From Escherichia phage vB_EcoS_HASG4, in the sequence record NC_100331.1: a stretch of 64,000 nucleotides of DNA. One strand, written 5' to 3'. The notes beneath the pieces are model-generated. The model was not told where the DNA came from and ran no database searches. It saw only the letters and a program-made list of their open reading frames with translations. Positions 42,204 to 42,671 of this stretch are shown here, piece after piece (within the stretch, counting starts at the first letter, position 1; every line of letters begins with the position of its first letter). The position numbers and the translations under genes are program-made.

Positions 42204-42671
42204 TTAAGTTTTAGTGACAACAGGCTTATAAAATGTATGTCCTTTAATCTTAGTTGTTTTCTTAAATTTCTTTGTCCAGTACGGTTTATCTTTACCACTA
42301 TGGAAGTATAAAGCTCCATGTGTAGGATCTTGTGGTAAATCAACGTAGTATATCACTCTAGCTAAATTCTTGGCGGTTTGCCAAGCCTCATCGGTTTTAT
42401 CAACTTTTGGTCTCTTAGATACCCAAGAGAACTGGTTAGACTGATATACTACTTTACAGTAGGAATCTGGAAATTTGCCGGAGTTTACACGGTTTTTAGT
42501 AACCTGTGCAACCGCCATCATTCCCTTTATGCCCTCACCACGACTCTCGAAATAGATATTTTTAGCAATGCAATCTATTTCTTTTGCATCGTGCGATGCC
42601 TGACTACTAAAGCTGAAGGTAAGGGCAGCTACTAAAAGCAAAGCTGCCTTCATTCTTTTTACTCCTGCCAA
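42204..42671 (-). CDS. secreted SleB-like cell-wall hydrolase
   Basis: 155 aa; signal peptide; IAKNIYFESRGE...AVAQVTKNRV...QFSW. Confidence 0.7.
   Translation of the reverse strand: MAGVKRMKAALLLVAALTFSFSSQASHDAKEIDCIAKNIYFESRGEGIKGMMAVAQVTKNRVNSGKFPDSYCKVVYQSNQFSWVSKRPKVDKTDEAWQTAKNLARVIYYVDLPQDPTHGALYFHSGKDKPYWTKKFKKTTKIKGHTFYKPVVTKT

What the first reader, a model, noticed from the sequence alone, without database searches (positions are those of the whole stretch)
42204..42671. Secreted SleB-like cell-wall hydrolase distinct from the endolysin
Signal peptide plus SleB-type motifs indicate a second peptidoglycan hydrolase exported by Sec, separate from the M15 endolysin at 20130-20543. 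Its role (entry, lysis assistance, host-wall remodelling) is unclear.
Basis: partly seen in the sequence, partly recalled or inferred. Interest (0 to 1): 0.45.

Follow-up and report, generated by a model that had tools for sequence, protein, structure and literature searches.

The report
Secreted SleB-type wall enzyme of T5
This is the known, already annotated "cell wall hydrolase" gene of T5-like phages (T5.083/T5p081): a small exported SleB-family enzyme that sits apart from the phage's normal lysis genes and whose role has never been tested.

Summary
The window is a T5-like coliphage, 100% identical to Escherichia phage vB_EcoS_EASG3. The minus-strand ORF 42204-42671 is real, but the likely start is the ATG at 42653, giving 149 aa.

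The protein hits Pfam Hydrolase_2 over the full profile (93.5 bits; cutoff 27). It aligns to the Bacillus SleB catalytic domain with the motif Glu (E36) invariant in 41 homologues. A pLDDT 93 model matches only SleB structures in the PDB.

The N-terminus is a classic cleavable Sec signal (MKAALLLVAALTFSFSSQA|S). Divergent relatives keep a signal of this type even where its sequence is replaced.

The gene lies in the early/tRNA region, about 22 kb from a complete lysis set: T-type holin, EndoT5 M15 peptidase and an i/o-spanin pair. It occurs in about as many phage records as EndoT5 (523 versus 525 at >=60% identity) and evolves under purifying selection (dN/dS 0.05-0.22).

The gene has been labelled a cell wall hydrolase homolog in the T5 st0 GenBank record (AY692264), and several genome papers note it.

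Most likely it is a periplasmic lytic transglycosylase acting as an accessory muralytic enzyme. Its biological role is inferred, not shown. Interest is low.

The parts
42204..42653 (-). CDS (149 aa plus stop) of the exported Hydrolase_2/SleB-family enzyme; orthologue of T5.083 / T5p081 (one residue different from T5)
   Evidence: ORF; Pfam PF07486 93.5 bits; annotated 'putative cell wall hydrolase' in MK373799 and 'cell wall hydrolase homolog' in AY692264; identity to T5; AF2 model pLDDT 93 matching SleB 4f55/4fet
42597..42653 (-). Codons 1-19: predicted Sec signal peptide MKAALLLVAALTFSFSSQA, with predicted signal peptidase I cleavage between A19 and S20
   Evidence: Sequence features. Signal-type N-termini with small residues at -3/-1 are kept across homologues of 35-98% identity. 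In S132 the signal is replaced while the mature domain is conserved. No lipobox and no twin-arginine motif. No dedicated predictor such as SignalP was available.
42546..42548 (-). Codon GAG for E36, the predicted catalytic glutamate in the motif Y-F-E-S-R-G-E
   Evidence: Aligned to the first Glu of YGESRGE in SleB 4f55/4fet; invariant in 41 homologues. The SleB catalytic glutamate is reported as essential in PMC12331253 and PMC11148199. Mapping it to this motif Glu rests on my own numbering arithmetic.
42662..42665 (-). Shine-Dalgarno GGAG, 8 nt upstream of ATG 42653
   Evidence: Read directly from the sequence; conserved in T5 and bobsandoy
43007..43035 (-). Sigma-70 promoter-like site TTGCTA-17-TATAAT upstream of the two-gene unit (cREC_REC gene plus hydrolase gene)
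   Evidence: Consensus scan, 10 of 12 matches. The number of promoter-like sites in the region does not exceed the shuffle expectation. The T5 record annotates a promoter at the equivalent place.
42659..42976 (-). Upstream co-oriented gene (105 aa, cREC_REC receiver-like domain). It is an operon neighbour only, not a functional partner.
   Evidence: Pfam PF20274 56.8 bits. The adjacency is lost in Sugarlandvirus and interrupted in S132.
20130..20543 (-). For comparison, not part of the feature: canonical endolysin, an L-alanyl-D-glutamate peptidase (EndoT5)
   Evidence: PDB 2mxz E 6.6e-91; Peptidase_M15_4
20540..21250 (-). For comparison: T-type holin
   Evidence: Pfam Phage_holin_T 374 bits
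22717..23444 (-). For comparison: overlapping spanin pair. The i-spanin-like gene is 23001-23444; the lipoprotein o-spanin is 22717-23070.
   Evidence: PHROG 812 Rz-like spanin E 3.5e-30; lipobox ITG|C; ORFs. PMC4342426 describes a T5-like cassette of holin, endolysin and spanins.

Best explanation
The gene encodes the T5.083-type 'cell wall hydrolase'. It is a single-domain member of the Hydrolase_2 (SleB/CwlJ catalytic domain) family, made with a cleavable Sec signal peptide.

Shown by sequence and model:
- the domain and the fold;
- the invariant motif Glu E36;
- the signal-type N-terminus;
- a near-invariant Cys28/Cys66 pair;
- a strongly basic mature protein (130 aa, pI 9.7, net +12);
- a position in the early/tRNA region behind a sigma-70-like promoter;
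- purifying selection, and presence in about as many phage records as EndoT5.

Inferred:
- the precursor is exported by Sec and cut after Ala19;
- the mature enzyme folds in the periplasm, probably with a C28-C66 disulfide;
- like SleB, it cleaves the MurNAc-GlcNAc bond as a lytic transglycosylase, using E36.

Its most likely role is as an accessory muralytic enzyme. It would already be in the periplasm before holin triggering and would cut glycan strands, while the holin-released EndoT5 cuts the peptide stems. The result would be faster or more complete breakdown of the sacculus. It is not the main endolysin and is not a virion entry enzyme.
For: Identity: Pfam Hydrolase_2, 93.5 bits, full length; PHROG 938 endolysin; phmmer to SleB catalytic domains 4f55/4fet at E about 1e-8 with YFESRGE aligned on YGESRGE; AF2 model pLDDT 93, whose only significant PDB matches are SleB (TM 0.71-0.78 normalised by target, rmsd 2.3-2.9 A).

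Active site: E36 is invariant in 41 homologues.

Export: a signal-like N-terminus is present in nearly all full-length homologues and keeps small residues at -3/-1 while its sequence diverges. In S132 it has been replaced while the mature domain is about unchanged. C28 and C66 are each at least 90% conserved, and both are absent in the sequence where I checked for their absence (P0092).

Functional constraint: dN/dS is 0.05-0.22. At >=60% identity the gene is in 523 phage records against 525 for EndoT5. Homologues of about 45% identity sit among early/nucleotide-metabolism genes of 85-95 kb phage contigs.

Separate from canonical lysis: holin, EndoT5 and the spanins lie at 20.1-23.4 kb.

Activity of relatives on Gram-negative walls: a signal-peptide SleB-like protein of phage CB7 was toxic when expressed in E. 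coli, and its CR3 homologue has been implicated in lysis (PMC7344957). A SleB-fold T6SS effector rounds and bursts E. coli from the periplasm and needs its Glu (PMC11148199). Loss of SleB in the Gram-negative Zymomonas alters its peptidoglycan (bioRxiv 10.64898/2026.07.21.739787).
Against: I found no experiment on T5.083 or any Demerecviridae orthologue. The identifier search returned nothing. Searches of the CRISPRi-ART preprint's main text and its one held supplement returned no hits for the gene.

The phage already has a complete holin/endolysin/spanin system, so a lysis role is not required. An enzyme exported from early times should risk premature lysis unless it is weak or restrained, and no restraint is evident. 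No holin or inhibitor gene is adjacent.

SleB itself depends on muramic-delta-lactam, which E. coli peptidoglycan lacks (established knowledge), so substrate specificity cannot be transferred from SleB. Signal peptide cleavage, the disulfide and early timing in this phage are predictions only.
Confidence: 0.6

Rival explanations
1. It is a periplasmic wall-remodelling enzyme with an early, non-lysis role. By loosening or turning over host peptidoglycan during infection it could allow cell enlargement, alter envelope properties, release anhydromuropeptides or affect superinfection. It would contribute little to final lysis.
For: It lies in the early/tRNA region behind an early-type promoter, about 22 kb from the lysis genes. 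It is exported independently of the holin. A complete canonical lysis system exists without it (PMC4342426). Distant homologues sit among nucleotide-metabolism early genes. A Hydrolase_2 protein has a housekeeping wall role in Zymomonas.
Against: The T5 holin and endolysin genes are also described as early-region genes (PMC3326045), so location does not discriminate. No partner, sensor or target gene is linked to it in conserved fashion. Related signal-bearing phage proteins are toxic or implicated in lysis. No phenotype of this kind is documented.
Confidence: 0.25
2. It is a virion-associated lysin used to pierce the wall during DNA entry.
For: Some phages carry lytic transglycosylases in the virion (general knowledge). 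It is a second muralytic enzyme with no assigned role.
Against: It has a cleavable Sec signal, which would send it to the periplasm away from cytoplasmic virion assembly. It is small, single-domain and in the early region rather than the structural module. A T5 virion proteome of 16 proteins is summarised in PMC8624392, but the passages I read do not name the full set, so its absence from virions was not checked. AKFV33 band proteomics found only capsid and tail proteins.
Confidence: 0.03
3. It is an inactive or decaying relic, or only a peptidoglycan-binding protein with no catalysis.
For: No activity has been measured. It scores far below the SleB equivalog cutoff. The T5 st0 deletion ends only about 240 bp from it, in a region known to tolerate deletions.
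Against: dN/dS is 0.05-0.22. E36 and five other residues are invariant. The profile match is full length and the model is confident. It is present in about as many phage records as EndoT5 and is retained in st0.
Confidence: 0.04

Closest known systems
T5.083 / T5p081 of bacteriophage T5 and its orthologues in Demerecviridae (labelled 'cell wall hydrolase', 'SleB', 'spore cortex-lytic enzyme precursor' or 'endolysin')
   Same: It is the same gene. The protein differs from T5's by one residue (V145A), and the synteny is the same. It has been noted in AKFV33 (ORF81, PMC3326045) and in Salmonella T5-like phages as a second 'endolysin far from holin' (PMC11180984).
   Different: Nothing of substance. 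None of these orthologues has been characterised experimentally in the literature I could search.
Bacillus SleB and CwlJ germination-specific cortex-lytic enzymes (PDB 4f55, 4fet)
   Same: The catalytic-domain fold and the E-x-R-G-E motif with the catalytic Glu are shared. Like CwlJ, this protein is single-domain.
   Different: Identity is only about 30%, and the TIGR02869 score is far below its cutoff. There is no N-terminal peptidoglycan-binding domain and no YpeB-type partner gene nearby. The host wall has no muramic-delta-lactam. This subfamily has a Cys28/Cys66 pair that SleB lacks.
SleB-like proteins with signal peptides in Vequintavirinae/Certrevirus phages (CB7_83, CR3_087)
   Same: These are also Hydrolase_2 domains with a signal peptide, in lytic phages of enterobacteria that encode other wall-degrading enzymes (PMC7344957). 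They share about 41-48% identity over the domain.
   Different: It is a different phage family. In CB7 a small two-TM holin candidate overlaps the gene, whereas here the downstream neighbour is a soluble 56-aa DUF7616 protein.
Secretory and SAR endolysins (for example Lys44 of Oenococcus phage fOg44; P1 Lyz, phage 21 R21) - comparison from my own knowledge
   Same: These are muralytic enzymes that reach the wall compartment through Sec rather than through holin holes.
   Different: SAR domains are uncleaved, weakly hydrophobic membrane anchors. Here the hydrophobic core is short (13-15 residues) and is followed by an AXA-type site. Those enzymes are the sole endolysin of their phage, whereas this one is additional to a holin-dependent endolysin.
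SleB-fold T6SS effector T6EC3 (PMC11148199)
   Same: It is a SleB-like fold that acts on E. coli peptidoglycan from the periplasm and depends on its catalytic Glu.
   Different: T6EC3 is delivered by T6SS, is paired with an immunity protein, and is part of a larger protein. It was found by fold rather than by sequence.

Membership tests
Pfam Hydrolase_2 (PF07486, SleB/CwlJ catalytic domain) | Profile score above the gathering threshold over the whole domain | tested here: met
   93.5 bits against a cutoff of 27; profile positions 1-100 of 100
Pfam Hydrolase_2 (PF07486, SleB/CwlJ catalytic domain) | Catalytic glutamate in the conserved E-x-R-G-E motif | tested here: met
   E36 aligns with the first Glu of YGESRGE in 4f55/4fet and is invariant in 41 homologues
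Pfam Hydrolase_2 (PF07486, SleB/CwlJ catalytic domain) | SleB catalytic-domain fold | tested here: met
   AF2 model pLDDT 93.3. Foldseek PDB: only 4f55 and 4fet are significant (prob 1.00, TM 0.71-0.78 normalised by target).
Pfam Hydrolase_2 (PF07486, SleB/CwlJ catalytic domain) | Lytic transglycosylase activity (1,6-anhydro-MurNAc products) | not testable with these tools
   Needs muropeptide analysis of digested sacculi
SleB proper (NCBIfam TIGR02869 equivalog) | Score above the equivalog cutoff | tested here: not met
   52.7 bits against a cutoff of 236.5; only profile positions 79-201 are matched
SleB proper (NCBIfam TIGR02869 equivalog) | N-terminal peptidoglycan-binding domain before the catalytic domain | tested here: not met
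   Only a 19-residue signal and about 10 residues precede the domain; there is no second Pfam hit
SleB proper (NCBIfam TIGR02869 equivalog) | Muramic-delta-lactam-dependent cortex substrate and a YpeB partner | not testable with these tools
   E. coli has no spore cortex (established knowledge). No ypeB-like gene is annotated among the neighbouring genes.
Canonical holin-dependent endolysin | Cytoplasmic (no export signal) and encoded with the holin | tested here: not met
   A signal peptide is present. The gene is about 22 kb from the holin/EndoT5 pair.
SAR (signal-anchor-release) endolysin | Uncleaved N-terminal TMD of about 20 weakly hydrophobic residues (Gly/Ala/Ser-rich) | tested here: not met
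   The core AALLLVAALTFSF is 13-15 residues, rich in Leu/Val/Phe, and is followed by S-Q-A|S. AXA-type sites are kept in homologues.
Sec-exported (signal-peptide) phage muralytic enzyme | Cleavable type I signal peptide with n-, h- and c-regions and small residues at -3/-1 | tested here: met
   Judged by sequence rules and by conservation across divergent homologues. No SignalP run was possible, and actual export is untested.
Virion-associated lysin | Encoded in the structural module or found in the virion proteome | tested here: not met
   The gene is in the early/tRNA region. It was not among the four proteins identified in AKFV33 virion bands. The T5 virion protein list was not checked.

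The most novel reading that the evidence does not exclude
The enzyme may be specialised for glycan strands whose peptide stems have already been cut back.

SleB-type enzymes act on spore cortex, where (from my own knowledge) muramic acid carries no peptide or only L-Ala. EndoT5 cuts between L-Ala and D-Glu, leaving MurNAc-L-Ala, which is a cortex-like substrate. On this reading the exported transglycosylase waits harmlessly in the periplasm from early infection. It becomes active only after the holin releases EndoT5, giving a two-enzyme, substrate-gated demolition of the sacculus.

This would explain both the safe early export and the nearly equal record counts for the M15 peptidase and this gene (523 versus 525).
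Probability: 0.12. Interest if true: 0.55.

Novelty: already known. Interest (0 to 1): 0.2.

Why it matters
It matters little for discovery. The gene is annotated in the very GenBank record that matches the window and in the T5 records, and several genome papers have remarked that T5-like phages carry a second, SleB-type wall enzyme.

What remains open is biological. A phage with a full holin/endolysin/spanin system keeps, under purifying selection, a Sec-exported lytic-transglycosylase-like enzyme in its early region. Nobody has tested what it does or how premature lysis is avoided. T5 genome engineering is reported, so a deletion study could probably answer this. The small, highly cationic enzyme may also interest those developing lysins against Gram-negative bacteria.

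Tried and rejected
- A literature search for T5.083, T5p081, YP_006911 or Q6QGL8 found no paper.
- Searches of the CRISPRi-ART preprint's main text and its one held supplement returned no hits for the gene.
- Supplements of the phiR2-01 proteome paper are not held, so I could not see whether the orthologue was detected.
- The two SleB structure papers (PMC3415495, PMC3621120) are not held. The mapping of the catalytic Glu to residue numbers rests on secondary citations and on my own numbering arithmetic.
- I tested whether the upstream cREC_REC gene is a functional partner. I rejected this because the adjacency is absent in Sugarlandvirus and interrupted in S132.
- I looked for an adjacent holin or pinholin. 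The downstream 56-aa protein (DUF7616) has no hydrophobic segment.
- I considered a lipoprotein or Tat signal. There is no lipobox Cys at the cleavage site and no RR motif.
- A terminator-like hairpin at 42668-42690 was reported on the plus strand. On the coding strand it is a modest mRNA hairpin (z -2.5) inside the upstream gene's 3' end. I did not pursue it.
- I did not use the large representative-protein search or the contig-collection scans, because 92 homologues and two context look-ups already answered the question.

Full report
WHAT THE WINDOW IS. A 3-kb stretch around the finding is 100% identical to Escherichia phage vB_EcoS_EASG3 (MK373799, Tequintavirus, Demerecviridae). It is 96-98% identical to many T5-like Salmonella and Escherichia phages. 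Window coordinates equal record coordinates plus 39. The region is the tRNA-rich part of the early region, with 23 tRNA genes between 27.8 and 41.3 kb.

THE OBSERVATION. The minus-strand ORF 42204..42671 exists. The listed start is a TTG. Six codons downstream is an ATG (42653) preceded by GGAG at a spacing of 8 nt. This start gives the 149-aa protein annotated in MK373799 as EASG3_00106, 'putative cell wall hydrolase'. The same gene is T5.083 in NC_005859 and T5p081, 'cell wall hydrolase homolog ... PF07486 ... COG3773', in the T5 st0 record AY692264. The protein differs from T5's by one residue.

The family hits are as follows:
- Pfam Hydrolase_2: 93.5 bits (cutoff 27), E 1.4e-26, over the full 100-position profile.
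- PHROG 938 'endolysin': E 1.7e-30.
- NCBIfam SleB equivalog TIGR02869: only 52.7 bits against a cutoff of 236.5, matching only its C-terminal catalytic part.

So the protein is a member of the Hydrolase_2 family, not SleB proper.

FOLD AND ACTIVE SITE. phmmer against PDB sequences finds only the SleB catalytic domains of B. cereus (4f55) and B. anthracis (4fet), at E about 1e-8. YFESRGE of the phage protein aligns on YGESRGE of SleB. I aligned the query with 40 diverse homologues, spanning 32-97% identity to it.
- Invariant: E36, R55, V68, Q74, H139 and F141.
- At least 90% conserved: C28, A30, N32, Y34, E40, G44, C66, F75 and W77, among others.

An AlphaFold2 model built on that alignment has mean pLDDT 93.3 and pTM 0.84. 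Its only significant Foldseek matches in the PDB are the SleB structures: probability 1.00, TM 0.71-0.78 normalised by target, rmsd 2.3-2.9 A, about 30% identity.

SleB's catalytic glutamate is reported as essential for its lytic transglycosylase activity (PMC12331253; PMC11148199). That this is the motif Glu aligned with E36 follows from my numbering of the crystallised constructs (E157 in B. cereus, E151 in B. anthracis, from memory). The primary papers were not available.

EXPORT SIGNAL. The N-terminus MKAALLLVAALTFSFSSQA|SHD has a basic n-region, a 13-15 residue Leu/Val/Ala/Phe core, and small residues at -3 and -1. There is no lipobox and no twin-arginine motif. The core is too short and too hydrophobic for a SAR anchor.

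Of 129 ATG ORFs of 60 aa or more in all six frames of the window, 4 pass a crude signal-peptide filter. This gene is one, and the o-spanin lipoprotein is another.

Conservation is more telling. Nearly all full-length homologues start with a signal-type segment ending in an AXA-like site just before the conserved C-[IL]-A-K-N-I-Y-F-E motif, while the signal sequences themselves differ freely. Examples are ...SFNSHA|T...SLPAYA|T...PPVVA|K...SIVSA|S and ...SVQA|N. In Salmonella phage S132 the signal has been replaced (MLKVLLLLATTISSLPAYA) while the mature domain is almost unchanged.

The Cys28/Cys66 pair is at least 90% conserved in this subfamily, and SleB lacks it. In the one sequence where I checked for its absence (P0092), both cysteines are missing. 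That fits a periplasmic disulfide, but I could not measure the distance between them in the model.

The mature protein is 130 aa, about 15 kDa, pI 9.7 and net charge about +12. Nearly +9 of that charge lies in the last 30 residues.

CONTEXT. The gene follows a 105-aa cREC_REC-domain gene (42659-42976), whose stop lies 5 nt before the hydrolase ATG. A sigma-70-like TTGCTA-17-TATAAT at 43035..43007 lies upstream of both genes. That scan found no more promoter-like sites in the region than shuffled sequence gives. The T5 record annotates a promoter at the equivalent place, and another (P-D/E 33) immediately downstream of the hydrolase gene.

The pairing with cREC_REC is not conserved. In Klebsiella Sugarlandvirus the hydrolase follows an exonuclease gene, and in S132 another ORF is inserted between the two. 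The downstream neighbours are a soluble 56-aa DUF7616 protein and a YqeY-like protein. No membrane protein that could act as a holin or inhibitor is adjacent.

The canonical lysis genes are elsewhere:
- T-type holin at 20540-21250 (374 bits).
- EndoT5-type L-alanyl-D-glutamate peptidase at 20130-20543 (2mxz, E 6.6e-91).
- An overlapping pair at 23001-23444 and 22717-23070. The smaller protein is a lipoprotein matching PHROG 812, 'Rz-like spanin'.

PMC4342426 likewise describes the T5-like lysis cassette as holin, soluble peptidase endolysin and two spanins, without this gene.

DISTRIBUTION AND SELECTION. tblastn against 50,697 phage records finds the hydrolase at 60% identity or more in 523 records. 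The same search for EndoT5 finds 525. The two sets were not intersected, so co-occurrence is suggested rather than shown.

Weaker homologues occur in other large lytic phages (rV5-like, Certrevirus, Pseudomonas, Stenotrophomonas and Campylobacter phages), where they are annotated variously as endolysin, SleB or cell wall hydrolase.

Two homologues of about 45% identity lie in 85-95 kb metagenomic phage contigs. There they sit among RNase H, ThyX, Metallophos, dGTP diphosphohydrolase-like and UvdE genes, so again in an early or nucleotide-metabolism setting.

Pairwise Nei-Gojobori dN/dS between the window gene, T5, bobsandoy, S132 and GlastoCabaret is 0.05-0.22. The T5 st0 deletion ends about 240 bp downstream of the gene, which is retained.

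WHAT IS KNOWN. The gene has been noted as 'cell wall hydrolase SleB' in the early region of AKFV33 (PMC3326045). It has also been noted as a second 'endolysin, far from holin', with a SleB domain in Salmonella T5-like phages, together with a call for further study (PMC11180984).

For the analogous protein of Pectobacterium phage CB7, the authors report a signal peptide, toxicity on expression in E. coli (data not shown), and a homologue in CR3 implicated in lysis (PMC7344957). A SleB-fold T6SS effector rounds and bursts E. coli from the periplasm and needs its Glu (PMC11148199). Loss of SleB in the Gram-negative Zymomonas mobilis alters peptidoglycan cross-linking and cell fitness. I found no experiment on the T5 gene itself.

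MOST LIKELY MECHANISM.
Shown by sequence and model: the enzyme family, the active-site residue, the export-type N-terminus, the genomic separation from the lysis genes, and purifying selection.

Inferred:
- Sec export and cleavage after A19.
- Oxidative folding in the periplasm.
- Glu36-dependent cleavage of glycan strands, as in SleB.
- A supporting role in wall destruction alongside the peptide-cutting EndoT5.

The main rival is an early wall-remodelling role unrelated to lysis. Location cannot separate the two, because the T5 holin and endolysin genes are also described as early-region genes.

A virion role is unlikely, given the signal peptide, the early-region position and the small size. 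A relic is unlikely, given the selection and the invariant residues.

One unresolved point is how an enzyme exported early avoids premature lysis. A speculative answer is substrate gating. SleB-type enzymes act on cortex strands bearing no stem or only L-Ala (my own knowledge), and EndoT5 produces exactly MurNAc-L-Ala. I give this reading about 12%.

VERDICT. The feature is an already annotated and repeatedly noted gene of T5-like phages, so novelty is nil. The interest lies only in its untested role.

Noticed in passing
window 42659-42976 (-): A 105-aa protein with a cREC_REC 'cyclic-phosphate processing receiver' domain (PF20274, 56.8 bits; PHROG 1479, unknown function). Its stop lies 5 nt before the hydrolase start codon. 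It is T5.084, similar to KVP40.0304. It sits in the tRNA region, so an RNA-repair or tRNA-related role seems more likely than a link to the hydrolase. The adjacency is not kept in Sugarlandvirus or S132.
   Followed up: partly
window 41198-41271 (-): A 74-nt 'tRNA-Ser' with anticodon ACT and no long variable arm (ARAGORN; Rfam tRNA 36.8 bits). Relatives annotate the equivalent element as tRNA-OTHER or tRNA-Sec(TCA). In the T5 record the region is part of a 719-nt 'RNAX, stable RNA with unknown functions'. It may be a tRNA-like element rather than a normal serine tRNA.
   Followed up: partly
window 43419-44057 (-): A 212-aa protein widely labelled 'tail fiber protein' (PHROG 1491; T5.085), although it lies in the early region and has no Pfam hit. 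The label looks like a propagated annotation. The T5 st0 record instead annotates an ORF on the opposite strand here.
   Followed up: no
window 22717-23444 (-): An overlapping spanin pair. The i-spanin-like gene is 23001-23444 (147 aa, N-terminal TM segment). The o-spanin lipoprotein is 22717-23070 (117 aa, lipobox ITG|C, PHROG 812). They lie 1.5 kb from the holin/endolysin pair, with a ClpP-like ORF and a 250-aa P-loop protein between.
   Followed up: partly
window 42668-42690: A perfect 10-bp inverted repeat (CCAATCGTAT-TGA-ATACGATTGG on the coding strand) ending just before the hydrolase Shine-Dalgarno, inside the last codons of the upstream gene. RNA fold is -13.1 kcal/mol, z -2.5. It is conserved in T5 and bobsandoy, where the same upstream gene is present. 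It could affect mRNA stability or translational coupling, or it could be incidental.
   Followed up: partly
window 39640-40587 (-): A 315-aa SPFH/Band_7 membrane protein (T5.080, labelled 'lipoprotein' in the T5 record) between tRNA genes. Its function in infection is unknown.
   Followed up: no
window 19636-20052 (-): A 138-aa multi-pass membrane protein with a Cys-rich loop immediately downstream of the endolysin gene (PHROG 5944, unknown function; no Pfam hit). Its position suggests a possible lysis-related role.
   Followed up: no
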